Shown here in pieces: positions 21,779-64,000 of a stretch of DNA of 64,000 nt. A model generated the notes under the pieces. That model made no database searches. It had not been told where the DNA came from and saw only the letters and a program-made list of their open reading frames with translations. The translations under genes and the position numbers were made by a program. Source of the DNA: an uncultured Bacteroidales bacterium (lineage in GTDB: Bacteria > Bacteroidota > Bacteroidia > Bacteroidales > VadinHA17); assembly GCA_963844935.1 (NCBI GenBank), contig CAWJQH010000003.1:238505-302504 (forward strand), read 5' to 3'. The first letter of the stretch is position 1. Each line of letters opens with the position of its first letter.

Positions 21779-23422
21779 ATGTCTAAGGGAAAAGAAACCC
21801 CGCGGCAAAAGATGATAGGTATGATGTACCTCATCCTGACCGCTATGCTTGCTCTTAACGTTTCAAAGGAAGCCGTTGAAGCCTTTAAGAGAGTGGACAA
21901 GGGTTTGACGAAGACCACGGCCAACTACATCAAGAAGAATGAAATCACCTATGCTGCCTTTGATGCGGCAGCAGCAGAAAACCCTGAGAAAGCAGGGGCC
22001 TGGAAGACAAAGGCTTTTGATGTGAAGACGCGTGCCGATGAGATTTTCAACTATATACAGGACCTCAAGGTGGAGATCGTCACCAAGGCTGAAGGCCAGG
22101 ATTTTGAAGCTCTCCTTCCCGACAATCAGATTGACATTGCGAAGGTTAAAAGGATAGATGAGAATAATATTCCTTCTGAAGTGCTGATAGGATCCGATCA
22201 GGACGGCAAGGGTAATGACCTTAAGGCTTTGATGGAAGATTACCGCAGCTTCCTCGTTGAAACCCTCGAAGGCAAGGATCTTGCTGCAGAGAAGTCAATA
22301 CTTGACATCCTCAACACCGATGACCCGCAAAACCTTGAAAAAACAGGAAAAGAGAACTGGGTGACTGCAACCTTTCAGACTCTTCCGCTGGTAGCTGCAA
22401 TAACCATGCTTTCAAAGATGCAGGTTGACGTCAGAAACGCCGAAACCGATGTTCTTAACTTCCTCTACACACAGATAGAAGCAGGGTCGTTCAAATTCAA
22501 CAAGATCATTCCGACAGTCATTCCAAACTCGACGTATATAATGCAGGGAAATGAATACGAGGCCCAGGTATTCGTCGCTGCCACAGATACAACCCAGGAT
22601 CTGGAAATTCTTATCGGACCGTACACTACCAAAACAAATGCTGACGGAACTGTTTCTTATGAGATGACAGGTGATTATACAAAGCTTCCAGTTGATAATG
22701 ACGGTATCGGCAGATACAGGGTCAGACCCGGATCAATCGGTGAAAAATCATGGGGCGGTATTATCAATATGAAGTCTCCTGACGGTACCATACGTGCATA
22801 TAACTTCAGCTCAAAATACTCGGTCGGCGTACCTAACGTGGTTGTATCACCTACGGCAATGAACGTGCTCTACCAGGGCATACAGAACCCCCTTGATATT
22901 TCCGTTCCGGGAGTGGGATCTGACAAGCTGACCGTGAGAATGACAAACGGTGAACTGAAGAAGGGAAAATATAAAAACTACCGCGGTGAATGGGTTGCAC
23001 AACCCAGAACAGTGGGTGAGAACGCACAGATAATAGTCTCTGCAAATATAAACGGCAAAGTACAGAGCTTCCCGCCTGTGGAATTCAGGGTTAGAAGATT
23101 GCCTGACCCCGAAGCAAGATTTGCCAACATGAAAGAGGGTAATGTCCTCAGAAGTGTTGCCGCAGCTCAGCAGGTTGTGACTGCCGTACTTGAGAACTTT
23201 GAATTTGACCTCACATATACAGTCACTGGTTTTACAGTCTCTGTTAACGACAAAGGCTTTGAGATTACCGCTGAATTTAACAACAACAGGATTACCGACA
23301 AGCAAAAGGGGCTTATTGGTAACCTGAGGGCCGGACAGAAGCTGATCATTGAAAAGATCAAGGCTGTGGGCCCCGACGGAAGAACCAGGGATCTCAACCC
23401 GATAATTCTTAAGATTAACTAA
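21779..23422 (+). CDS. gldM: T9SS/gliding motor protein GldM/PorM
   Basis: PRQKMIGMMYLILTAMLALNVSKEAVEAF N-terminal TM segment typical of GldM, 547 aa. Gene order K-L-M-N. Confidence 0.85.
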   Translation: MSKGKETPRQKMIGMMYLILTAMLALNVSKEAVEAFKRVDKGLTKTTANYIKKNEITYAAFDAAAAENPEKAGAWKTKAFDVKTRADEIFNYIQDLKVEIVTKAEGQDFEALLPDNQIDIAKVKRIDENNIPSEVLIGSDQDGKGNDLKALMEDYRSFLVETLEGKDLAAEKSILDILNTDDPQNLEKTGKENWVTATFQTLPLVAAITMLSKMQVDVRNAETDVLNFLYTQIEAGSFKFNKIIPTVIPNSTYIMQGNEYEAQVFVAATDTTQDLEILIGPYTTKTNADGTVSYEMTGDYTKLPVDNDGIGRYRVRPGSIGEKSWGGIINMKSPDGTIRAYNFSSKYSVGVPNVVVSPTAMNVLYQGIQNPLDISVPGVGSDKLTVRMTNGELKKGKYKNYRGEWVAQPRTVGENAQIIVSANINGKVQSFPPVEFRVRRLPDPEARFANMKEGNVLRSVAAAQQVVTAVLENFEFDLTYTVTGFTVSVNDKGFEITAEFNNNRITDKQKGLIGNLRAGQKLIIEKIKAVGPDGRTRDLNPIILKIN

Positions 23423-44791: not shown

Positions 44792-45638
44792 ATGGAAGTT
44801 GACAGCAAGATAATCGTAGTGCCATGGGACTTCACTCCCGTTACCGAGTATGCCCTGCAGCATGCCATAAAGATATCGCGCATGACACACAACGATATCT
44901 GCCTCCTGCATATCGTTGAGAAGATCACAACGGAAGGCGGGATAAAGGCGAAACAGGCCGCAATGAATAATCAAGGGAAACGAGATTGAACGCAAATTAT
45001 GGCGTTACGGTCAAGACGCATGTTCAACGCGGCACTATATTCAAACAGATACCTGAGTTTGTCAATGACCGCAGTGCATCACTGGTTGTCATGGGTACAC
45101 ACGGGATGAACGGGATGCAGAAGCTCACCGGCAGCTGGGCCCTGAAGGTTATCGCAAAGTCAAGGGTTCCATATATAGTGGTTCAGGCACCGCCTGCCGA
45201 CATGGAGAAATTCCGCACCATCGTATGCCCTATTGACTGGCGCGCCGAGGAGAAAGAGAAGCTCTCAATGGCAATTTACATGAGCAAATACTTTGACACG
45301 AAGGTGCACATCCTGAAAGCAACCAGAAAAGATGAGTCACTGGCCAAGAAGGCTAACCTGAATCTTAATTTTACAGTTAGAATGCTCATACAGAACAATA
45401 TAGAGTATGAGATCAAGGAAGGTGCCATTCGGATAAGCTTGGCGAGCAGACTATTGAGATAGCACAGCAGCTTAATGCTGACCTCATCCTGATAATGACC
45501 ACCAAGGACATCACCTTTGCAGACTATGTGGTCGGGGCCAAGGAACAGTATATCATTGCCAACAGTCAGAAGATACCGGTATGCTGCGTCAACCCGTCGT
45601 CTGCCTTCGCCAACATCGGACAATTCATGTATGGATGA
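44792..45638 (+). pseudogene. Tandem-domain universal stress protein, interrupted by two -1 frameshifts (or sequencing errors)
   Basis: Three colinear pieces in phases 2, 1 and 0. Piece 1: MEVDSKIIVVPWDFTPVTEYALQHA.... Piece 2: ...NANYGVTVKTHVQRGTIFKQIPEFVNDRSASLVVMGTHG...IVCPIDW.... Piece 3: ...DKLGEQTIEIAQQLNADLILIMTTK...IPVCCVNP, ending at TGA 45636-45638. Confidence 0.6.
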
Positions 45639-47859: not shown

Positions 47860-48043
47860 TCTCTGGTAAATTGAAAACCTTCAGCCAAACATTATCCTTT
47901 AACCTTTTTTTTTATCTTTGCCCTGTTATCGACGGTGGACAAATTTGTACTGATTGCAACCACGGAAAAAAATGCTAAAACGGTTTCCCCCGCTGCTTCT
48001 CAACAATCCGTCCCTGCCATTGTTAAACACTAAAAATTAACAT

Positions 48044-49303
48044 ATGAGCTATTTCTTTACTTCTGAATCAGTCTCCGAAGGCCATCCTGACAAGGTAGCC
48101 GACCAGATTTCGGACGCACTGCTTGACAACTTTCTTGCATGGGACCCCGAATCAAAGGTCGCCTGCGAAACCCTCGTGACAACCGGTCAGGTGGTCGTTG
48201 CCGGCGAGGTTAAGACAAAGACCTATATCGACGTACAGACAATAATCAGGGAGGTCATTAACAGGATCGGCTATACAAAAGCCGAGTATATGTTTGACGG
48301 AAATTCATGCGGCATCTTCTCTTCCATCCATGAACAGTCGCCTGATATCAGCCAGGGCGTTGTACGAAAGAAAAAAGAGGACCAGGGCGCCGGCGACCAG
48401 GGCATGATGTTCGGCTATGCCACCAATGAGACAGAGAATTTCCTCCCCCTGTCGCTCGACATCGCTCACGAGCTCGTCTTCCAGCTGGCAGAGATACGCC
48501 GCGAAGGAAAAGTGATGAAATACCTCAGGCCCGATTCCAAATCGCAGGTCACCATCGAATACAAGGACGACGGCACGCCGCTGAGGGTTCATACAATTGT
48601 TGTTTCGACGCAGCATGACGACTTCGACAAGGATGAAAAGAAGATGCTTGAGACAATCAAGGCTGATGTTATAAATATTCTCATCCCAAGGGTTAAGGCG
48701 CAGTTTGGCAAACCGGTGCAGGCGCTGTTCGACAGCAAAATAAAATACCATGTCAACCCTACCGGTAAGTTTGTGATAGGCGGGCCTCACGGTGACAGCG
48801 GGCTCACGGGCCGTAAGATTATAGTCGATACCTATGGCGGCCGCGGAGCACACGGCGGCGGCGCCTTCTCAGGCAAGGACCCGTCAAAGGTCGACCGCTC
48901 GGCAGCCTACGCAGCACGTCACATTGCCAAGAATATGGTTGCTGCCGGCGTGGCCCGTGAGATGCTTGTCCAGGTTTCGTATGCCATCGGAGTAGCTAAA
49001 CCGGTGGGCATATACGTCAACACTGCCGGAACAGCTAAGGTAAAAATGACCGACGGGGAAATTGCTAAAAAAATAGAGAAGATGTTTGACCTCCGTCCCG
49101 CCATGATTGAAAAGGAGTACGGCCTTCGCAAACCCATTTACAGCGAGACTGCTGCCTACGGTCACATGGGCCGCAAGCCCCGCACCGTGGAAAAGGTGTT
49201 CCGCTCAGCCAACGGCAAACCGGACAGGAAAATAACAGTTCAGCTCTTCAAATGGGAGGAACTTGACAAGGTGAATGAGATTAAAAAAGCCTTCGCTCTT
49301 TAG
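48044..49303 (+). CDS. metK: Methionine adenosyltransferase (S-adenosylmethionine synthase)
   Basis: [51 protein letters not shown]. Confidence 0.95.
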
Positions 49304-50271: not shown

Positions 50272-53200
50272 TTATAGGTTTGGGGCGAGCCATTTTGCAG
50301 CCTCTTCGGTAGTCATACCGCAACGACGTGCGTAGTCTTCAAGCTGGTCTTTGCCGATGGTGCCCACATTAAAATAAGACGACCCCTGTGATGCGAAAAT
50401 GTAACCGCATACCGATGACACAGGCACCATGACAAAGCTTTCCGTGAGTGTCACTCCTATTGTCTCCGGAGCCCTCAGGAGATCAAAGATGACCTGCTTG
50501 CCTGTATGGTCAGGACAGGCAGGATAGCCCGGTGCCGGCCTGATGCCCTGGTACTTAACCTTGAACAATCTCGTCTGCCGTCAGCTTTTCGTCAGGGGCA
50601 TAACCCCAGTGCCTGACACGTATCTCACGGTGCAGCCACTCGGCAGCAGCTTCAGCAAAGCGGTCGGCAAGTATCCTCAGCATGATGCTGTTATAATCGT
50701 CGCCGGCAATATCCTGAGGCAGATTATCCTTTACCTTAACGGTAACGACAAATAATCCCGCATGATCATCCTTCTCTGCCACGAAGTCAGACAGGCAAAG
50801 GTTGGCATGGCCGGTCTCCTTTTCCTCCTGGTTGCGCAGGAATCGAAGAAACACCTCTTCGCTGCTCTTGTCCGGGAATAGCCTTATATCATCGCCATGC
50901 TTTTCTGCAGGAAATATTCCAGACAGAGCTTCAGCTGTCATCAGATCCTCTTCTGATATCCTTTCAATCATTTTCAGGGCATCGTCATACAGCTTCCTGG
51001 CTTCGGCGCCCTTTACCGGGTCACTGAAAATATCAGGATAACGTCCGCTGATCTTCCATGAAAAGAAAAAGAATGTCCAGTCAATGTAGTCAATCAGCGT
51101 CTTAACTTTTAAAGGACCCGAGTTTATCACTCCGGTCATGGCCGGAACTGGAGCAGGCCTCTCAATCCTGAATGCATTCTTTCTTGCGGCATCAAGGGAG
51201 ATGAGTTTCTTCACCTTCCTCGAGGCTTCATGCTCCTGCCTGAGCCTTTCGTATTTTTCCTTTACCGCTTCATGCATCGGATTTTCGGGTGATAACAGTC
51301 CCGACAGTACGGACACAGCCCTTGAGGCGTCCTTTACATGAACGGCCGAGAATGAATATACGGGAGCGATCTTTACCGCAGTATGGATTTCAGAAGTCGT
51401 TGCACCTCCGATCAGCAGGGGTATCTTAATTCCGCGTGCTTCCATCAGTGAAGCTACGTGCACCATCTCCTCGAGTGAGGGTGTGATCAGTCCTGACAGC
51501 CCTATGAAGTCTACCTTTTCACGTAGGGCAGTATCAAGAATGGTCTCTGCCGGCACCATCACTCCCAGGTCAATGATCTGGTAGTTATTGCATGACAGTA
51601 TTACGCCGACAATATTTTTCCCGATGTCGTGAACGTCACCCTTAACCGTTGCAAGGAGCACTTTACCGGCTGAAGAAACCTCTCCGACCCTTGTTTCTGC
51701 TTCAATATGCGGGGTGAGTTGTGCTACTGCCTTCTTCATTACCCTGGCGCTCTTGACCACCTGCGGGAAGGAACATCCTGCCCGAACCGAACAGGTCGCC
51801 TACCTCATTCATGCCGTCCATCAGCGGCCCCTCGATTATGTGCAGCGATCTTTCATACAACGGCCTGGCTTCTTCGACATCCCCGGCAATAAACATGTCT
51901 ATGCCGTTCACAAGGGCATATTTTATCCGCGTGTTGACATCACCGTCCCTCCAGGCCAGGTGCTTTGCTTCCTCTTCCTGCTTTCCTCCCTTCATCCCGG
52001 CGGCAAACTGCAGCAGCCTGTCGGTGGCGTCTTTCCGCCTGTTCATTACCACATCCTCCGTAAGGCGAAGCAGGTCAGGCTCAATGGAGGTGTAAACTCT
52101 CAGCAGTCCGGGATTGACAATACCCATATCCATGCCGGCTTTGATGGCATGGTACAGGAAGACCGCGTGCATTGCCTCCCTGACGGCGTCATTTCCGCGG
52201 AAGGAAAATGAGAGGTTGCTGACGCCGCCGCTCACCCTTGCATAAGGCAGGTTGGCCTTGATGAATTCAGTGGCTTTAATATAATCAACTGCATAATTGT
52301 TATGCTCCTCGATGCCCGTCCCGATGGCCAGTATGTTCGGGTCAATGAAAATATCTTCAGGAGGAAAACCGGCCTTTTCTGTAAGCAGCTTGTACGACAG
52401 TGTGGCAACTTCCTTTCTCCGCTCAAAGGTGTCAGCCTGGCCGCGCTCGTCGAAAAGCATCACAACGGCTGCCGCACCGTACCGGCGGACAAGGCGCGCC
52501 TTAGACAGGAACTCCTCCTCGCCCTCCTTGAGGCTGATAGAGTTGACGACAGGCTTGCCCTGGACACACTGCAGTCCTGCGACAATAACCTCCCATTTTG
52601 ATGAGTCGATCATAATCGGCAGTTTCGCAATGTCAGGCTCGCTCATCACCAGGTTGATGAATTTCTTAATGACCGCGGCGCCGTCGATCATTGCATCATC
52701 CATGCATATATCTATCACCTGCGCCCCGTTCTCAACCTGGTCACGGGCAACATCAAGGGCGGCCTGGTAATTTCCTTCACGTATCAGGCGGGCAAACTTG
52801 ATTGAGCCGGATACGTTGGTACGCTCACCTATGTTTACAAAATTTGTGTCGGGACGAATGACCAGCGGCTCGAGCCCGGCCAGCGCGGTGACATGCTTTC
52901 TTTCAGGGACCGTCCTGGGAGAGTATTGTTTAGCCAGTGAGGCGATGACCTTTATATGTTCAGGCGTTGTGCCGCAGCACCCGCCGATGATGTTCACCCA
53001 GCTGTTCTGCATGAAGCCGCTGATAATACTTCCCATGTATTGCGCATCCTGATCATACTCTCCGAACTGGTTTGGCAGGCCGGCGTTGGGATGAGCCGAG
53101 ACAAAGAAGGGGGCTTTTCCTGACAGCTCTTCGATGAAAGGCCTGAGCTGCTCGGCGCCCAGGGCGCAGTTAAGTCCTATGCTGAGTATCGGGTAGTGTG

Positions 53201-53894
53201 ACATTGTGATGAGGAAAGCCTCCAGGGTCTGGCCCGTCAGCGTTCTTCCGCTGGCATCGGTAATGGTGCCCGAGACCATCACGGGAAGGTCAACGGCTTT
53301 TTCTTCAAGCACCCCGCTGATGGCAAACAGCGCCGCCTTGGCATTCAGGCCGTCAAAGACCGTCTCAACAAGAAGCAGATCGGCTCCCCCGTCGACCAGT
53401 CCTCTCACCTGCTCCGCATAAGCATCAGCAAGCTCTGAAAAGGTGACTGTGCGTGCACCGGGATCACTGACGTCAGGCGACATGGAGGCCGTGCGGTTGG
53501 TGGGTCCCACCGAACCTGCAACCCATGCCTCTCTGCCGGTCTCCCTGAAATGTTCCATGACAGCCTCACGGCCAAGTTTTGCTGCCGCAAAATTGATATC
53601 GTAAACATACCGCTCCATGCCGTAATCAGCCATGGAGATCCTGTTACCGTTGAAAGTGTTTGTGCTGATTATGTCAGCTCCGGCCCTGAGATAGGCAAGG
53701 TGAATATCCCTTATAATCTTCGGCTGCGTTACCGACAGGAGATCATTATTGCCTTTCAGCGAACGGGGGTGCAGCTGAAACTGCTGGCCCCGGTACTGCT
53801 CTTCCGTCAGCCTGTGACGCTGTATCATTGTGCCCATGGCACCGTCGAGGATAAGTATCCTCTCGCGGAGTGTATCTTTTATATCGGCCTTCAC
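50272..53894 (-). pseudogene. metH: Cobalamin-dependent methionine synthase, split into three ORFs by two single-base insertions (or sequencing errors)
   Basis: ORF1 (730 aa) has the Hcy- and pterin-binding barrels and ends ...[15 protein letters not shown]2 (401 aa) continues [13 protein letters not shown]... with the B12 motif GDVHDIGKNIV. ORF3 (98 aa) continues KYQGIRPAPGYPACPDH. The total is about 1215-1230 aa, as expected for MetH. Confidence 0.8.
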
Positions 53895-53965: not shown

Positions 53966-54418
53966 TCACTTTGCACTGCCATGTGCAATGCCGTCCCATA
54001 TCTTAATAAGCGTGGCCGCAATTTTACCTATGAAATAAGGCATTTTGCGCCGGCTTATTTTCAGGGTTTTGTCTCCCCTGATTATTTCCCGCACCTGTCC
54101 TGCCACATCTTTTTCCGTGGACCACGGATCAGGAATCATGCTGGTATCACCCTGCGTTTTAATAAAGGTGGAGAGTTTGCCTCTCTGGATGGCGGTTACT
54201 CTGTGTACCACAAATCCTCCGTCTCTTCTGAGCGCCGCAACCCTTCCTGTTTTCAGGGGTTTGTCAGGGTCAGGGGGCGAAATGATTATTCTGTCGCCGG
54301 GTTTTATTGCCGGCCACATGCTGTATCCTCCGGCAGTGATGACAATTTCTTTCCCCTCTGTGAGCATGGATGAGGCTGCGGCAGTTGCCGCAGCGGCAGG
54401 AGCATTCTCACGCGCCAT
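53966..54418 (-). CDS. S26B (SipW/Sec11-type) signal-peptidase-like serine peptidase, 150 aa
   Basis: Boxes in canonical order: GYSMWPAIKPGD (Ser box), FVVHRV (His box), TQGDTS (GDN-like box). Starts 7 nt after the stop of the kinase-like gene. Confidence 0.6.
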   Translation of the reverse strand: MARENAPAAAATAAASSMLTEGKEIVITAGGYSMWPAIKPGDRIIISPPDPDKPLKTGRVAALRRDGGFVVHRVTAIQRGKLSTFIKTQGDTSMIPDPWSTEKDVAGQVREIIRGDKTLKISRRKMPYFIGKIAATLIKIWDGIAHGSAK

Positions 54419-54425
54419 GAGGTAA

Positions 54426-55283
54426 TCACGGACACGGTTGTCGGGCAGGAAATGCCAGGCTGCTGACCCTGACCGATGCAGCCAGGTCCGCGACTGATGC
54501 CATCAGCCGCGCAGAAGCCTCCCTGTCCCAGTTCTGCTGGATGCAGTTGGCCATTATCAGCCCGGCAGCCTCCGCACCTGAGAGCGGTGTCGAGATATTC
54601 GACTTCCCGTGACTGATTATCCACAGATGATCAACCTCAGCACTCCTTGGTTCATCATTTCTGTAAACGGGAGTGCTGTGCATCCTCCACCGGGCCCCCT
54701 CTTTAACCAGTATCAGCCTGTCATCGTGAACGACCCTGTCGCCGTTGCTGTCAAAAATTTTTGCCATTGTAGTCTTGCCGCTGCCTGACTTGCCGGTGAA
54801 AATCCAGCCTTTGCCGTCACTGATCACCCCAGATCCGTGGATCATTATGTCACCTTTCATCGAGGTCAGAAAATACAAAATCAGGCCGTCAACAGGATAC
54901 GGGAGAGGATTGATTTCACTTCCCGCTTCATCTGTAAAGAATTGCCAGGACATTTTGCCGCGCGGAATGATCAGCAGGGGAAATCGTGCAGGCTCTTTCA
55001 GCGTAACCCTGACGTAAGTGGCCTTTTCATCGGCAGCCACCTCCCAGAATGGTTCCCCGGACTGCTGCGGTCCTGCCGGTGCATCCTCAAGCAGCGGGGC
55101 ATTGAAAACCTTTGCCGCGCCTGCAGGGATCACGGCCCTTCCGGATTTTACTTCAATTGTCAGCTCCGGACCACCTCCTACAGCAGTTGTAAACGCGGCA
55201 AAACGCTCATCGGGCCTGAGACTTATCCCATAATCAGACTGAAGACGAATCCTCTTCCCGGCTATGACCAGATCAACTGTCAC
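54426..55283 (-). CDS. HPr-kinase-like (HprK-related) serine kinase, 285 aa
   Basis: The C-terminal half IHGSGVISDGKGWIFTGKSGSGKTTMAKIF parallels the HprK C-domain (HG..v...G.GvLi.G.SG.GKS). The GTG start overlaps the PqqD TGA (GTGA). Confidence 0.6.
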   Translation of the reverse strand: MTVDLVIAGKRIRLQSDYGISLRPDERFAAFTTAVGGGPELTIEVKSGRAVIPAGAAKVFNAPLLEDAPAGPQQSGEPFWEVAADEKATYVRVTLKEPARFPLLIIPRGKMSWQFFTDEAGSEINPLPYPVDGLILYFLTSMKGDIMIHGSGVISDGKGWIFTGKSGSGKTTMAKIFDSNGDRVVHDDRLILVKEGARWRMHSTPVYRNDEPRSAEVDHLWIISHGKSNISTPLSGAEAAGLIMANCIQQNWDREASARLMASVADLAASVRVSSLAFPARQPCP

Positions 55284-55570
55284 TGTTCCCTGAAATGAAG
55301 AAAACTCATGACCTGCTCAAGAAACTCCAGTATATCCTTCTCTGCCTCATCAGGACCGACATCGAACTCTTCAGCCATCATGGCTGTTATATCCCTGATG
55401 TTCCGCTTTCCGTCTATCGCCTCCCAGATAAACACACCCGTCTCGTTCAGCCTGTACAGTGAATCCATGTCTGCTATGTTATCCGTGAGCGGAATGAGGA
55501 GGCATTCGTCATTGATCCTGCGAAATACAACCCTGGTTGAATGCGACGGTATTGAGGATACTGATATCAT
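55280..55570 (-). CDS. PqqD-family protein (RiPP recognition element / peptide chaperone), 96 aa
   Basis: ...VVFRRINDECLLIPL...LYRLNETGVFIWEAIDGKRNIRDITAMMAEEFDVGPDEAEKDILEFLEQ is the typical PqqD beta-sheet plus helices pattern. Confidence 0.7.
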   Translation of the reverse strand: MISVSSIPSHSTRVVFRRINDECLLIPLTDNIADMDSLYRLNETGVFIWEAIDGKRNIRDITAMMAEEFDVGPDEAEKDILEFLEQVMSFLHFREQ

Positions 55571-55586
55571 TAATCTGTTATTAACT

Positions 55587-55594
55587 CAAAGGTA
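55587..55594 (-). promoter_or_regulatory. Candidate -7 box TACCTTTG for the PqqD operon
   Basis: The minus strand reads gcTACCTTTGagttaataacagattaATG, so the box ends 16 nt before the PqqD ATG. An imperfect -33 (TTGC) lies 20 nt upstream. Confidence 0.35.
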
Positions 55595-60810: not shown

Positions 60811-60847
60811 ATAAAACAGCCCCGGGAAATGTTATCCCGGGGCTGTT
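60811..60847 (-). terminator. Rho-independent terminator ending the ABC / nucleotidyltransferase transcription unit
   Basis: The minus strand reads ACAGCCCCGGGA-taacatt-TCCCGGGGCTGT: a 12-13-bp GC-rich stem followed by TTTTAT. Confidence 0.65.
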
Positions 60848-61094
60848 CGCACACGTCTCCACCACACGAGGAGACACCACACGCAGCGAGACAGGCTCTA
60901 AAGACTGCCTGTACCTGTGTTGACTTTCAATATAAAACTAATTGCAGACATGTAGTTCTCACTCAAAAACTAATAAACAAACAACAGACTTTCCTTTCAC
61001 AAAAATTTAAAAACTTCGACTAAAGTAAATATATAAACGTAATTTCTAAAAAACAAGAATTCTTAAAGGTTTTTGAGGAAAATGTGGATTTTTC

Positions 61095-62288
61095 TTACTT
61101 CTGCCGATATTCAGGCAAAATAGGGTTAATCACCCATAAGATTTTTCCGAGTCTGTGCGGGTAACGGAGCAGGGCGGAAAAGGAAGTGCTGCATCCGTAC
61201 CTGTTTTTCATGAATTCTATGGAAGGGAACAGATCGCCTGTTATGAAAATCAGTTTGCGCCTGATGCCTCTGAGTGATTTAAGGTTTTCCAGAAACAGTT
61301 CTTTCTGGCTCCGGGGCCTCGCCTGGCCCGGAGCCAGAAGATTGCCCCTGAAGGCAGCCACCTTCTCCTGCTCAGAACCCTCGCGGGCTTTGAACTCCGG
61401 AGGGATATCAATTCCGTAAAATTTATTCAGTATTGTCATTATAGTTCTTAATCCGCCCTGTATTCCGGCCTGGTCCGCATCGGAAAGGAGGTTACCGCTG
61501 AAAATCTTTCCTTCGTGTTTTTTTACGAGAAGGAAGATGTCCGTATAAAGCCTCAGCTGAAACTCACCCTTGACCTCATGCTTGAAAATATGGTTGACAA
61601 GACCGAGCAAGGCAATCCCCGGAGGAAGTACATAATAGGTTTTACCCGCTATTGAAATTACTTCCGGATTATCCAGGGCTCTTCTGACAAGTGCTGAACC
61701 CTCCGGGCCGAACAGCCGGTGATGAAGGTCGACTGAGATGCCGTTGCGGTGCAGCTCGGGCAGGTGATTGCCAAGATCAAGAATGATATGCCTGTACAAT
61801 GAAGATTTCATTGGCATTGAAATGAAGCCGGCCCTGATGAGTATATCCCGTGCCCTGAGAGCATCCCCAGGCGCAACAAGGAGATCGGCGTCACTCATCT
61901 GCCTCAGTCCCCTTGAACCGTAAACGGAATGTTCAAGAGCCAGTCCTTTCAGAAGCAAAGCCCTGATGCCTTCCTTCTCAAGCTCTGCCACTGCGTCAGC
62001 TGCCTCTGCAGTGATGTAAGACACTCTGGCTATTGCTTTAAACCGTATGTTCTCAAGCAGGTTCCGCTCCTGTTCCGGAACCGCCTCCGTCAGACCCAGG
62101 TCAGTAATGTTCTGCCAGGCGAGTGCGGCGACACCGTGCCTGATGGCCAGGTCCGCAAAAAGCTTCCAGGCGGTCAGGGTGCGGGAGCATTTTTCTGCCT
62201 GAACCCGTTCCTCCTCCGTGAATGTGGTCCTGCTGAGCAGGAGCAACAGCGTGATGACCTGATCCTTTTCATTTTCGGATGTGGTCAT
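61095..62288 (-). CDS. Uncharacterised nucleotidyltransferase family protein (NTP_transf_5-like), 397 aa
   Basis: N-terminal helical region ...LLLLLSRTTFTEEE...WKLFADLAIRHGVAALAW.... Core ...LLLKGLALEHSVYGSRGLRQMSDADLLV...ISVDLHHRLF is typical of this family. ATGA overlap with the upstream ABC gene. Confidence 0.6.
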   Translation of the reverse strand: MTTSENEKDQVITLLLLLSRTTFTEEERVQAEKCSRTLTAWKLFADLAIRHGVAALAWQNITDLGLTEAVPEQERNLLENIRFKAIARVSYITAEAADAVAELEKEGIRALLLKGLALEHSVYGSRGLRQMSDADLLVAPGDALRARDILIRAGFISMPMKSSLYRHIILDLGNHLPELHRNGISVDLHHRLFGPEGSALVRRALDNPEVISIAGKTYYVLPPGIALLGLVNHIFKHEVKGEFQLRLYTDIFLLVKKHEGKIFSGNLLSDADQAGIQGGLRTIMTILNKFYGIDIPPEFKAREGSEQEKVAAFRGNLLAPGQARPRSQKELFLENLKSLRGIRRKLIFITGDLFPSIEFMKNRYGCSTSFSALLRYPHRLGKILWVINPILPEYRQK

Positions 62289-64000
62289 CGGTACATCGAT
62301 TTCTGCCTGGTGAACATTGAATAATATCTTCCCCGTGCCTCCATAAGCTCATCATGTGAACCCGTCTCGGCAATGCGTCCCTTATCCAGTACGATAATAC
62401 GGTCGGCATCCCTGACGTTGGCTAGACGGTGACTGATGAAGATGCATGTCCTGCCGTCTGTGATCCTGTCAAGATCAGAAAAGATCTCGTACTCAGAGTC
62501 GGCATCGAGCGATGATGACGGCTCGTCAAGTATCAGCACGGGACTATCGCGGTAGAGTGCCCTTGCAATGGCAATCTTCTGCCACTCTCCCCAGCTCAGC
62601 TCACGGCTTCCTCCGGTCTGATGACCGAGCATCGTCTCATAACCCTGCGGCAGGCTCTCCAGCAAAGCCGAGACCCCTGCCATTGAAGCTGCCCGCCTCA
62701 GGCGTTCCTGGTTGTCGCTTCCACTGTTGTCAGCCAGGCGGATATTGTCACCGGCCGTGAGATAGTACAGCATGAAGTCCTGAAAAACAACGGAAAAAAG
62801 TCTCCGGTATTCATGCAGGTCAAATCTGTCAATGCTCTCTCCGTTAAGGGTGATACTTCCTGAATCCGGGTCATAAAGCCTGCATAGAAGCTTTGCCAGC
62901 GTCGTCTTGCCCGAACCGTTTGGACCGACAATTGCAATTTTCTCGCCCCTGGTGATATTCAGGGTTACATTTTCGAGTGCCGGACTGCCGGCGCCGGGGT
63001 AAGTGAAAGTGAGGTTTTCAACATCAATCCGGTTGAATGAAAGGATGCCCGAAGCTTTTTCCTGATTAGGCATATCGCTCTCAATATCAAGAAAATGAAA
63101 CAGGTCGTCAAGAAAGAGCCTGTTCTCTGCCAGCCCGGAATAACCAGAGACAGCATCGCGCAGATAGATAAGCGCCTGCCTGAAGGCAATAATATACATC
63201 GCCAGTTCTCCGGCAGTAATTTCTGATCTGGTATAGGAAAAAGAGGCATAGATCAGCACGCCGGCAAATGCAATAACTTTCACTACGGAGGCTGTACCTT
63301 CAAGTATTGAGTTCTTTCTGACGGCAGCAATCTCAGGCTCCTTTGACGCCGCAAAGTGTTTCCGGAAAAGCTTCTCGAAATATCCGGCAAGGCCAAACAG
63401 CCTCACCTCCCTGGCCGGTTTTTCTCCCGTCAGGAGCCAGCTGAAATATGATGCCTGCCGTGAATGAGCCGTCACGGCTTTTTTCGCTTCATAAAGCCTG
63501 CCGGACGAGCTCAGCTTCATCCATAACACCGGCAAAAAAACAACTGCAAGGACTGCAAGGGGTATTATGCCGAAAGTTCCGAGAACATAACCCATTGCCA
63601 TAAATGAGATGACACCACGCAGGAGGAGAATGATGTCTGAAACCATTCCTGCAGGCCTCCAGGAAATGTCCCTTGCCGCTCTTGACAGCTTGTCATAAAA
63701 CCCGGGGTCTTCAAAAAATCTTAATCCGAGAGTCGCCGAATGGCTGTGTATTAGTGAGGCAATATGATTTTCAAGCTGGAAGGATTGCTTTTTTGAGATA
63801 TACTGACCCAGAGAGTTGAGAAGGTCATCAGCAAGAAGTGTAAGGGCAACAGCTGCTATAAGTCCCGTTATAGCCCGCACCTGGTTAACCGTATCGCTTC
63901 CTGCTTCCCCTGTAAGTATGTCTATATAATGCCTGAGGAGAAAAATTGCCGCCAGCGGAAGAAAAGACCTGATAACCAGTATAATCAGGTTGATGACAGT
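62285..64000 (-). CDS. ABC exporter (fused 6-TM permease + ATPase); 5' end lies beyond the window
   Basis: Walker A GPNGSGKTT, variant signature LSWGEWQKIAIARAL, Walker B VLILDEPSSSLD, H-loop FISHR. The frame remains open from the GTG at 63880 up to position 64000. Confidence 0.8.
   Translation of the reverse strand, partial: TVINLIILVIRSFLPLAAIFLLRHYIDILTGEAGSDTVNQVRAITGLIAAVALTLLADDLLNSLGQYISKKQSFQLENHIASLIHSHSATLGLRFFEDPGFYDKLSRAARDISWRPAGMVSDIILLLRGVISFMAMGYVLGTFGIIPLAVLAVVFLPVLWMKLSSSGRLYEAKKAVTAHSRQASYFSWLLTGEKPAREVRLFGLAGYFEKLFRKHFAASKEPEIAAVRKNSILEGTASVVKVIAFAGVLIYASFSYTRSEITAGELAMYIIAFRQALIYLRDAVSGYSGLAENRLFLDDLFHFLDIESDMPNQEKASGILSFNRIDVENLTFTYPGAGSPALENVTLNITRGEKIAIVGPNGSGKTTLAKLLCRLYDPDSGSITLNGESIDRFDLHEYRRLFSVVFQDFMLYYLTAGDNIRLADNSGSDNQERLRRAASMAGVSALLESLPQGYETMLGHQTGGSRELSWGEWQKIAIARALYRDSPVLILDEPSSSLDADSEYEIFSDLDRITDGRTCIFISHRLANVRDADRIIVLDKGRIAETGSHDELMEARGRYYSMFTRQKSMYR

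What the first reader, a model, noticed from the sequence alone, without database searches (positions are those of the whole stretch)
53966..55570. Orphan PqqD(RRE) / HprK-like kinase / S26B-peptidase operon: a RiPP-like maturation module without cyclase, cysteine protease or visible precursor
Three minus-strand genes are packed as one unit. The PqqD TGA overlaps the kinase GTG (GTGA at 55280-55283). The kinase stop and the peptidase start are 7 nt apart. A TACCTTTG -7 box lies 16 nt upstream of the PqqD ATG.

PqqD-type proteins are the leader-peptide recognition elements of RiPP pathways. HprK-like kinases are known tailoring enzymes that phosphorylate the C-terminal Ser of some lasso peptides (the paeninodin type). 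Here there is no asparagine-synthetase-like cyclase and no transglutaminase-like B2 protease next to them. A Ser/His signal-peptidase-like enzyme occupies the position where a leader peptidase would be expected.

I do not recognise PqqD + HprK-like kinase + SipW-type peptidase as a characterised RiPP class. It may represent an undescribed peptide phosphorylation/processing system. The operon is wedged between rnr and the metH promoter, so it is embedded in core genome rather than in an island.
Basis: partly seen in the sequence, partly recalled or inferred. Interest (0 to 1): 0.8.

Follow-up and report, generated by a model that had tools for sequence, protein, structure and literature searches.

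The report
LPP-type peptide phosphorylation/processing cluster in Bacteroidales
The three genes are real and belong to a five-gene peptide maturation and export system that matches the "linear polyphosphorylated peptide" (LPP) pathway described in Bacillota in 2026, here found in uncultured Bacteroidales with the kinase and the leader peptidase fused and with no recognisable precursor gene nearby.

Summary
Two corrections are needed.

1. The kinase and the peptidase are one gene. All relatives of at least 47% identity encode a single ~438-aa protein. The window differs from a 98.8%-identical contig by one extra C at 54448. That is one of 15 single-base indels in 19.5 kb, so it is probably an assembly error.

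2. The unit is not an orphan trio. An ABC exporter (62285 to beyond 64000) and an NTP_transf_5 protein (61095-62288) belong to it. In a sister lineage all five genes form one operon.

The set of RRE, HprK/ScmC-like kinase, archaeal-type signal-peptidase-like protease, NTP_transf_5 and MsbA-like exporter, without a cyclase, is the core of the LPP RiPP family (Popov et al., Nat Commun 2026, PMC13381572). The peptidase domain matches an LppS profile (hhalign 97.5%, E 6e-12), and Ser/His/Asp align with the residues those authors mutated.

What is new: the phylum, the kinase-peptidase fusion, vertical inheritance at a core locus next to rnr, and no LppA-like precursor in about 0.8 Mb searched.

I rate it a new variant of a known kind, of moderate interest.

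The parts
55280..55570 (-). Discrete PqqD-type RiPP recognition element (LppB-like).
   Evidence: PF05402 at 4e-17. Best solved-structure matches are the lasso B1 chaperone PbaB1 (9x90_B, 4e-4) and LppB (9x8z_B, 0.045). BLASTP gives 26% identity to LppB (E 1e-6) and 35% identity to the Paludibacter RRE (E 5e-18). It lies directly upstream of the kinase gene in 63 of 63 assessable loci.
54426..55283 (-). N-terminal part of the fused gene: an ScmC/HprK-like P-loop (PEPCK-fold) kinase-like domain (LppK-like). The Walker A Lys170 codon is at 54774-54776.
   Evidence: Homologues carry PF27840 'ScmC'. The profile hits HprK/P 1jb1 at 2e-3, aligning HG, GxSGxGK[ST] and hDDR. Foldseek matches PEPCK (1e-6) and HprK/P (TM about 0.55 on the target). 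H149, G164-T172 and H186-R189 are invariant.
53966..54418 (-). C-terminal part of the fused gene: an S26B (archaeal/SipW/Sec11-type) signal-peptidase-like leader peptidase domain (LppS-like). Codons: Ser33 at 54320-54322, His72 at 54203-54205, Asp97 at 54128-54130.
   Evidence: TIGR02228 at 2e-11 and Peptidase_S24 at the cut-off. SEC11A/C are the best solved-structure matches by sequence and by fold. BLASTP to LppS gives 27% identity, E 3e-7, with Ser/His/Asp aligned to S29/H68/D93. hhalign against the LppS family gives 97.5% probability, E 6e-12. The triad is invariant in 16 homologues.
54448..54448 (.). Single-base insertion (an extra C on the minus strand, GCATTTC[C]TGCCC) that breaks the fused kinase-peptidase reading frame.
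   Evidence: The insertion shows in alignments with L001 and L002. It is one of 15 single-base indels in 19.5 kb against the 98.8%-identical L001. Several others break metH or, in L001, the ABC gene.
55587..55594 (-). Bacteroidetes-type -7 promoter box, TACCTTTG, in the 67-nt region shared with the divergent rnr gene.
   Evidence: Read directly from the sequence. A similar TATCTTTG box lies upstream of the ABC gene in L001, L002, L003 and L037 and upstream of the Paludibacter PqqD gene. Promoter function is inferred only.
61095..62288 (-). NTP_transf_5 'uncharacterised nucleotidyltransferase' (LppN/PsmN-like), with an S132-D133-A134-D135 motif.
   Evidence: PF14907 at 9e-46. It is adjacent to the ABC gene in all loci and to the peptidase gene in the five-gene operons. 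The DxD motif is invariant. The AF2 model (pLDDT 76) weakly resembles MenT1, ANT(2'')-Ia and LnuA nucleotidyltransferases.
62285..64000 (-). ABCB/MsbA-like half-transporter exporter (LppD-like). Its 5' end lies beyond the window.
   Evidence: ABC_tran and ABC_membrane hits, with TIGR02203 MsbA as the best NCBIfam hit. The frame stays open to position 64000. Full-length homologues are 593-595 aa. It lies immediately downstream of the peptidase gene in 19 of 40 assessable loci.

Best explanation
This is the Bacteroidales version of an LPP-type (linear polyphosphorylated peptide) RiPP maturation and export system. It has five functional parts.

Proposed mechanism:
1. The small PqqD protein (RRE) binds the leader of a ribosomal precursor peptide and presents it to the next protein.
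2. The HprK/ScmC-like P-loop domain of that protein uses ATP to phosphorylate a Ser in the core peptide.
3. The fused S26B-type Ser/His/Asp peptidase domain then removes the leader inside the cell.
4. The MsbA-like ABC exporter secretes the product.
5. The NTP_transf_5 enzyme may decorate the phosphate, as PsmN does in pseudomycoidin.

No cyclase is involved, so the product stays linear.

In the window's lineage the kinase and peptidase are one polypeptide. The exporter/NTP_transf_5 pair has been moved to the other side of rnr-ispG-cysS. The apparent kinase/peptidase split in the window is a 1-nt indel, most likely an assembly error.

Shown here: gene content, homology, fusion, conserved catalytic residues and co-occurrence.
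Taken from the published Bacillota system: order of steps, phosphorylation, RRE-assisted cleavage.
Unknown: the substrate. No LppA-like precursor is linked.
For: Gene set and co-occurrence:
- PqqD lies upstream of the kinase gene in 63 of 63 assessable loci.
- ABC and NTP_transf_5 lie directly downstream in 19 of 40 loci. In the window-type arrangement they lie beyond cysS-ispG-rnr in 9 of 9 loci.
- The contiguous operon PqqD-ScmC-S24-ABC-NTP_transf_5 occurs in L006-L008. Cultured Paludibacter propionicigenes WB4 carries the same five components, with NTP_transf_5 on the opposite strand.

Fusions that link the parts:
- Kinase-peptidase is fused in 53 loci and split in 28.
- Peptidase-ABC is fused in Paludibacter.
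- A kinase-peptidase-S8 fusion occurs in L010.

Homology to the characterised system:
- Peptidase domain against the LppS family: hhalign 97.5%, E 6e-12.
- BLASTP to LppS: 27% identity, E 3e-7. S33/H72/D97 align with LppS S29/H68/D93, whose mutation abolishes cleavage.
- PqqD against LppB: E 1e-6.
- The published LPP core is annotated by the same models that hit the window proteins: TIGR02228, PqqD, NTP_transf_5, TIGR02203, TIGR04249 and TIGR04352.

Structure: the kinase domain has an HprK/PEPCK-like fold and the peptidase domain a SEC11-like fold.

Published experiments: LppK polyphosphorylates core Ser3. LppS removes the leader and needs LppB. The unphosphorylated precursor is cleaved poorly.
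Against: - No LppA-like precursor was found. An HMM built from 14 LppA leaders gives nothing in the six-frame translation of the window plus 96 loci (about 0.8 Mb; best E 0.45). Motif scans were negative.
- Sequence similarity to the Bacillota proteins is low (26-27% identity).
- The kinase domain was never compared directly with LppK. It matches HprK-type models only weakly.
- The published family shows patchy, transfer-driven distribution and is said to be restricted to Bacillota. This module is vertically inherited at one core locus, which could indicate a different physiological role or substrate.
- LppN had no detectable activity in the published system, so the NTP_transf_5 step is speculative.
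- If the frameshift at 54448 is real, the window's own copy might be impaired.
Confidence: 0.7

Rival explanations
1. It is a housekeeping or physiological protein- or peptide-processing system that only shares parts with RiPP pathways. The kinase-peptidase would act on a normal cellular protein or envelope component, for example in polysaccharide or cell-surface biology, rather than on a dedicated precursor.
For: There is no linked precursor in any of 96 loci. The module is strictly vertical and sits at a fixed core position next to rnr in 31 of 31 loci, with uniform GC content. The Paludibacter copy abuts polysaccharide genes. Bacillota LPP clusters sit inside capsule loci and their biological role is unknown.
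Against: PqqD-type domains are known as peptide-leader binders. The closest solved relatives of this one are the lasso B1 chaperone and LppB. The complete five-part match to a proven RiPP core is unlikely to be coincidental. A dedicated exporter is always present.
Confidence: 0.15
2. It is an ordinary phosphorylated lasso-peptide cluster that has been scattered. The cyclase, the B2 protease and the precursor would lie elsewhere in the genome.
For: HprK-like kinase, PqqD, NTP_transf_5 and an ABC exporter are the accessory set of paeninodin/pseudomycoidin-type clusters. About one third of Bacillota SpI genes sit next to lasso genes. An Asn_synthase gene lies 9.4 kb upstream of the module in Paludibacter.
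Against: None of the ten window ORFs of 462-924 aa scanned against Pfam is a cyclase. No cyclase or B2 appears among the annotated genes around the module in L001, L002 and L006-L008. The five-gene operon is flanked by unrelated housekeeping genes. The peptidase slot is already filled by the LppS-like domain. The Paludibacter Asn_synthase has the ordinary AsnB architecture (DUF3700, GATase, Asn_synthase) and is separated from the module by eight unrelated genes.
Confidence: 0.07
3. It is a decaying remnant. The precursor has been lost and the window's copy is a frameshifted pseudogene with no current function.
For: The frame is broken at 54448. No precursor was found.
Against: Catalytic and P-loop residues are invariant across homologues down to about 50% identity. 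The five genes are retained in every assessable locus. Single-base indels are scattered through essential genes such as metH in both the window and L001, which points to assembly error. A naturally split kinase and peptidase arrangement exists in 28 loci. The window's peptidase ORF starts at an ATG nearly colinear with stand-alone LppS, so a real split need not inactivate it.
Confidence: 0.06

Closest known systems
LPP (linear polyphosphorylated peptide) biosynthetic gene clusters of Bacillota, e.g. Paenibacillus alginolyticus lppA-K-B-S-D-N (Popov et al., Nat Commun 2026;17:6633; PMC13381572)
   Same: [quoted passage not shown] The peptidase and the RRE are homologous. The same TIGRFAM and Pfam models apply.
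   Different: The phylum is Bacteroidota; the paper calls LPPs restricted to Bacillota. The kinase and peptidase are fused into one 438-aa protein. No LppA-type precursor (YxxPxVLxHQxIxFETxxS) is nearby. The cluster is split by rnr-ispG-cysS. It is vertically inherited at a core locus rather than patchily transferred. Identity is only 26-27%.
Paludibacter propionicigenes WB4 locus Palpr_1116 onward (SSN cluster 8 in Supplementary Data 1 of PMC13381572; listed there but not analysed)
   Same: It is a Bacteroidales genome with PqqD (35% identical to the window's, E 5e-18), a 292-aa ScmC-type kinase, an S24/S26 peptidase, an ABC exporter and NTP_transf_5. No LppA-like precursor was found.
   Different: The peptidase is fused to the ABC exporter (747 aa) rather than to the kinase. 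NTP_transf_5 is on the opposite strand. The locus sits next to polysaccharide genes, not next to rnr and metH.
Paeninodin/pseudomycoidin-type phosphorylated (and glycosylated) lasso peptide clusters (PMC8498205, PMC6993621)
   Same: They share a PqqD-type B1, an HprK-family kinase acting on a Ser, an uncharacterised nucleotidyltransferase with a DxD motif (PsmN D134/D136; D133/D135 here) and an ABC exporter.
   Different: There is no macrolactam synthetase, no transglutaminase-like B2 cysteine protease and no lasso precursor. A serine peptidase does the leader removal.
SynChlorMet cassette (ScmC/ScmD with radical SAM ScmE/F) and the HprK-related kinase A/B plus PqqD sets of TIGRFAMs
   Same: An ScmC/HprK-like P-loop protein is paired with a PqqD homologue. 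Pfam files the kinase domain under PF27840 'ScmC'.
   Different: There are no radical SAM/SPASM genes. The ScmC and ScmD equivalog scores are far below cut-off (18 against 125 and 38 against 100). Related radical-SAM-containing variants do exist elsewhere (L010, L095).
S26B signal peptidases (SipW, archaeal SPase I, eukaryotic SEC11A/C)
   Same: The fold matches, and so do the Ser-His(-Asp) motifs: GxSMxP, hHRh and GD...D.
   Different: There is no N-terminal membrane anchor. The domain is cytoplasmic and fused behind a kinase. It falls below the TIGR02228 and SipW cut-offs. It acts, by homology to LppS, on an RRE-presented leader rather than on Sec signal peptides.

Membership tests
LPP RiPP biosynthetic cluster (PMC13381572) | SpI-like (archaeal-type signal peptidase I) leader peptidase with a catalytic Ser/His/Asp triad | tested here: met
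   hhalign against a 12-member LppS alignment gives 97.5% probability, E 6e-12. BLASTP gives E 3e-7, with S33/H72/D97 aligned to S29/H68/D93. TIGR02228 is hit by 16 of 16 homologues, but below its cut-off.
LPP RiPP biosynthetic cluster (PMC13381572) | Discrete PqqD-type RRE co-localised with the peptidase | tested here: met
   PF05402 at 4e-17. Present in 63 of 63 loci. 26% identity to LppB, E 1e-6.
LPP RiPP biosynthetic cluster (PMC13381572) | HprK-like kinase (annotated by TIGR04249 or TIGR04352 in the published set) | tested here: inconclusive
   The same models hit, but weakly (about 1e-3). Precomputed PF27840 ScmC applies. The fold is HprK/PEPCK-like with the P-loop, HG and DD motifs conserved. 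No LppK sequence was available for a direct comparison.
LPP RiPP biosynthetic cluster (PMC13381572) | NTP_transf_5 nucleotidyltransferase and MsbA-like ABC exporter in the core | tested here: met
   PF14907 at 9e-46. TIGR02203 is the best hit for the ABC protein. Both are linked to the trio in every assessable locus.
LPP RiPP biosynthetic cluster (PMC13381572) | Precursor LppA with the N-terminal YxxPxVLxHQxIxFETxxS (Px9Fx[T/A]) motif, within or near the cluster | tested here: not met
   The LppA-leader HMM and regex scans of all six frames of the window and 96 loci found nothing (best E 0.45).
LPP RiPP biosynthetic cluster (PMC13381572) | No macrolactam cyclase; product is a linear polyphosphorylated peptide | tested here: inconclusive
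   No Asn_synthase-type cyclase was seen among the ten window ORFs scanned or among the annotated genes within 10 kb of the module in L001, L002 and L006-L008. The product chemistry cannot be tested with these tools.
Lasso peptide cluster (including the paeninodin type) | Asparagine-synthetase-like cyclase (C), transglutaminase-like cysteine protease (B or B2) and a precursor | tested here: not met
   None appears. Only the B1-like RRE and the accessory kinase, NTase and ABC genes are present.
SynChlorMet (SCM) cassette | ScmC and ScmD together with two radical SAM/SPASM maturases | tested here: not met
   There is no radical SAM gene in the locus. ScmC scores 18 bits against a cut-off of 125, and ScmD 38 against 100.
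S26B signal peptidase I (SipW / archaeal / Sec11) | Ser/His catalytic pair on the S26 fold, plus a membrane anchor, acting on Sec signal peptides | tested here: inconclusive
   The fold and the catalytic motifs are met. The equivalog cut-offs are not reached. No N-terminal anchor exists, because the domain follows a cytoplasmic kinase domain. It is a relative, not a bona fide signal peptidase.
HPr kinase/phosphorylase superfamily | PEPCK-like P-loop fold with GxSGxGK[ST], an upstream HG and a downstream DD motif | tested here: met
   The profile hits 1jb1 and 2qmh with these motifs aligned. Foldseek to HprK/P gives E about 4e-5, TM about 0.55 on the target. The Pfam Hpr_kinase_C score is below cut-off (16 against 33.3).

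The most novel reading that the evidence does not exclude
The Bacteroidales module could be a distinct, vertically inherited branch of the LPP system. Its substrate would not be an LppA-type peptide but an unlinked precursor with a new leader, or even a cellular protein. The kinase-peptidase fusion would hard-wire 'phosphorylate, then cleave' into one enzyme. The product would then be a conserved physiological molecule of this clade, such as a signal or an envelope or polysaccharide-associated factor, rather than a sporadically transferred weapon.
Probability: 0.3. Interest if true: 0.7.

Novelty: new variant of a known kind. Interest (0 to 1): 0.5.

Why it matters
LPPs were described only in 2026 and were stated to be restricted to Bacillota, with an unknown final product and unknown biological role.

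A homologous core is conserved across a whole clade of uncultured Bacteroidales and in cultured Paludibacter propionicigenes. This widens the family's range. It supplies natural fusions (kinase-peptidase, peptidase-exporter) that support physical coupling of the steps. It also shows an evolutionary mode, core and vertical, that argues for a physiological function.

The missing precursor is a concrete, testable gap. Finding it would define the leader code of a second LPP branch. It would also give a handle on what these phosphorylated peptides do.

Tried and rejected
Precursor search, all negative:
- A 17-aa ORF (MSAISFILKVNTGTGSL) lies between NTP_transf_5 and cysS. It is kept in L002, but the start or the frame is lost in L003, L016 and others. 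The region behaves as a structured RNA.
- Intergenic gaps inside the five-gene operons contain only GC-rich palindromic repeats.
- Genes inserted between rnr and PqqD in some loci are unrelated. They include an 855-aa secreted protein, a 452-aa membrane protein and a 125-aa ORF of unknown function.
- A GG-leader scan found one peptide in L078 and none in the window.
- Small ORFs conserved between the window and its relatives turned out to be fragments of an indel-broken Usp gene.
- [Y/W]xxP, Px9Fx[T/A] and LppA-HMM scans found nothing.

Other checks that led nowhere:
- Rfam has no family for the conserved intergenic RNA.
- PADLOC shows no defence-system match beyond generic ATPase hits.
- The ABC exporter gave only generic ABCB/MsbA matches.
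- The genome-contig scan was swamped by the P-loop pattern and returned only 3 loci. I fixed this for the metagenome scan by trimming the P-loop from the query.
- Exact look-ups of the window's own proteins failed.
- Literature searches on ScmC, PF14907 and RRE-Finder plus HPr kinase found nothing relevant.
Full report
**Observation**

The three minus-strand ORFs exist exactly as described: 55280-55570 (96 aa), 54426-55283 (285 aa) and 53966-54418 (150 aa). The GTGA overlap is there. So are the 7-nt gap and the TACCTTTG box 16 nt upstream of the PqqD ATG.

The HMM placements are as follows.
- PqqD is secure (PF05402, 4e-17).
- The peptidase sits at the Peptidase_S24 cut-off. It also hits the archaeal-type signal peptidase model TIGR02228 (2e-11), below that model's cut-off.
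- The 'kinase' gives only weak P-loop-region hits to Hpr_kinase_C, HprK-related kinase A/B and ScmC.

**The kinase and peptidase are one gene**

Of 203 homologues found for the kinase ORF, the 120 listed are almost all about 438 aa long. They carry PF27840 (ScmC), and those scoring above threshold also carry PF00717. Proteins 98-99% identical to the window's read straight through the junction as '...SSLAFLPDNRVRDYLMARENAP...'.

At the DNA level the window has one extra C at 54448 compared with the 98.8%-identical contig L001. That comparison shows 15 single-base indels in 19.5 kb. Four of them lie inside metH. Another breaks the ABC gene in L001 instead of in the window. The pattern is that of assembly error, not of decay.

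A genuinely split arrangement does exist in a sister lineage: two overlapping ORFs of about 298 and 154 aa, in 28 loci. The fused form occurs in 53 loci. The alternation between fused and split forms argues that the two polypeptides act together.

**The unit has five parts, not three**

At 61095-62288 lies an NTP_transf_5 gene (PF14907, 9e-46). At 62285 to beyond 64000 lies an ABCB/MsbA-like exporter whose frame is still open at the window's end.

In L006-L008 and in many metagenomic loci the genes form one operon, PqqD-ScmC-S24-ABC-NTP_transf_5, still next to rnr-ispG-cysS.

Across 90 loci:
- PqqD precedes the kinase gene in 63 of 63 assessable cases.
- ABC and NTP_transf_5 follow the peptidase directly in 19 of 40 cases.
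- In the window-type arrangement they lie beyond cysS-ispG-rnr in 9 of 9 cases.
- rnr is nearby in 31 of 31 cases.

GC content is uniform.

**Structure and residues**

The AlphaFold2 model of the fused protein (pLDDT 81) has two domains.
- The N-terminal domain matches ATP-dependent PEPCK and HprK/P.
- The C-terminal domain matches SEC11A.

The profile search of solved structures aligns HG...GxSGxGKT...hDDR with HprK/P. It aligns GYSMWP, VVHRV and TxGD with SEC11A/C. All of these residues are invariant among 16 homologues. The PqqD protein's nearest solved relatives are the lasso B1 chaperone PbaB1 and LppB.

**What it is**

A 2026 paper (PMC13381572) describes 'linear polyphosphorylated peptides' (LPPs). 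The family was discovered through an archaeal-type signal peptidase in RiPP clusters of Bacillota. Its conserved core is SpI (LppS), a discrete RRE (LppB), an HprK-like kinase (LppK), an uncharacterised NTP transferase (LppN) and an MsbA-like pump (LppD), without a cyclase.

The authors' experiments showed:
- LppK adds up to four phosphates to Ser3 of the core.
- LppS (S29/H68/D93) removes the leader.
- Cleavage needs LppB, and it is poor on unphosphorylated peptide.

Their supplementary domain table lists TIGR02228, PqqD, NTP_transf_5, TIGR02203, TIGR04249 and TIGR04352. These are the same models that hit the window proteins.

Direct tests against the published proteins:
- The window peptidase against LppS gives 27% identity, E 3e-7. 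S33/H72/D97 fall on S29/H68/D93, with identical spacing (39 and 25 residues).
- The fused-family profile against a 12-member LppS alignment gives hhalign 97.5%, E 6e-12.
- PqqD against LppB gives E 1e-6.

**Differences from the published family**

- *Phylum.* The paper states that LPPs are restricted to Bacillota. Its Supplementary Data 1 does list two Bacteroidales SpI homologues with RREs (SSN cluster 8), but it left them unanalysed.
- *Paludibacter.* I retrieved the Paludibacter propionicigenes WB4 locus. It reads PqqD - ScmC (292 aa) - S24~ABC fusion (747 aa) - NTP_transf_5 on the opposite strand, beside polysaccharide genes. Its RRE is 35% identical to the window's.
- *Fusions.* Bacteroidales thus carry an LPP-like core with different fusions: kinase-peptidase here, peptidase-exporter in Paludibacter.
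- *Precursor.* None was found. An HMM of 14 LppA leaders, plus the paper's Px9Fx[T/A] and [Y/W]xxP motifs, detected nothing in six-frame translations of the window and 96 loci. Intergenic gaps hold only palindromic repeats.
- *Evolution.* The module is inherited vertically at a fixed locus. The Bacilli clusters are transferred patchily.
- *Wider relatives.* Related clusters with a radical SAM enzyme and kinase-peptidase-S8 or invasin fusions exist in other phyla. The representative search shows a large ScmC-like family, mostly of stand-alone proteins of about 295 aa.

**NTP_transf_5**

The protein has an invariant S-D133-A-D135 motif. In PsmN of pseudomycoidin, D134 and D136 are required for adding hexoses to the phosphorylated peptide. 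The AF2 model (pLDDT 76) weakly resembles MenT1, ANT(2'')-Ia and LnuA nucleotidyltransferases. ANT(2'')-Ia is the same enzyme family to which PsmN was reported to show limited structural homology. LppN was inactive in the published heterologous system, so this step stays speculative.

**Rivals**

- A scattered ordinary lasso cluster is unlikely. The ten window ORFs scanned and the annotated genes around the module in relatives show no cyclase or B2 protease, and the leader-peptidase role is already filled.
- A non-RiPP housekeeping role cannot be excluded, given the missing precursor and the core-genome behaviour.
- A dead remnant is unlikely, given invariant catalytic residues and universal retention of all five genes.

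**Verdict**

What remains new is a Bacteroidales branch with a fused kinase-peptidase, a split cluster, vertical inheritance and an unlinked or unrecognised substrate. I rate it a new variant of a known kind, with interest 0.5.

Noticed in passing
window 60811-60955 (- strand), between the NTP_transf_5 stop and the cysS start: A conserved sRNA-like element of about 145 nt. It has a 5' ACTAC.TGTCTG motif, a hairpin, an invariant GTCTCGCTGC[A/G]TG, a variable hairpin and a terminator (CTGCCCCGGG...CCCGGGGCAG followed by Ts). It occurs in every window-type locus where this region could be examined, directly after NTP_transf_5, including loci where cysS is more than 1 kb further on. It is absent from the five-gene-operon loci. 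Only a sub-threshold Rfam hit was found, to RF02278 over the terminator. Stems show compensatory changes.
   Followed up: partly
window 50272-53894 (metH) and 44792-45638 (Usp): metH is broken into three ORFs by single-base insertions at 51768, 51061 and 50567. A tandem-Usp gene that is 280 aa in L002 is also fragmented. L001 has different breaks, in ABC and in metH. This looks like homopolymer or indel error in long-read assemblies.
   Followed up: yes
window 47929-47988 (+): A SAM-II riboswitch (RF01726, 54.1 bits against a gathering score of 44) lies upstream of the S-adenosylmethionine synthetase gene at 48044-49303. It sits beside the metH-MTHFR methionine-cycle genes.
   Followed up: no
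L055-type gaps: L076 2930-3130, L078 10790-11030, L085 6430-6600, L067 540-830, L096 9650-9990: Intergenic gaps of the five-gene operons in several lineages are filled with GC-rich palindromic repeat units (e.g. CCCCCCTAAAGGGGGG, CCACAAAGG...). They resemble REP-like elements.
   Followed up: no
L010 1908-9542 and L095 7113-11544: Other phyla carry clusters of PqqD plus a radical SAM enzyme plus a long protein. That protein joins the ScmC-like domain and the S26-like peptidase domain to a subtilisin (S8) domain or an invasin-like domain. L010 also carries NTP_transf_5 and an ABC exporter. This is a further, apparently undescribed architecture.
   Followed up: partly
Alignment A1, columns 35-95 and 165-230 (N-terminal part of the kinase domain): Some lineages carry long, low-complexity, partly repetitive insertions (e.g. 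repeated ...SEVNPLPY...) at two fixed points of the ScmC-like domain. They lengthen the fused protein to 480-580 aa.
   Followed up: no
window 21779-23422 (+); L006 14285-19022: gldM lies in the window. In the sister lineage a gldK-like (FGE-sulfatase) gene and gldL, gldM and gldN (type IX secretion/gliding) lie immediately downstream of the five-gene operon. This is probably synteny only.
   Followed up: no
window 53966-54040 (C-terminal helix of the peptidase domain, residues about 415-433 of the fused protein): A conserved amphipathic, positively charged C-terminal helix is predicted with low confidence (pLDDT about 50). LppS proteins end in a similar hydrophobic segment. It might mediate membrane or exporter association.
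   Followed up: no
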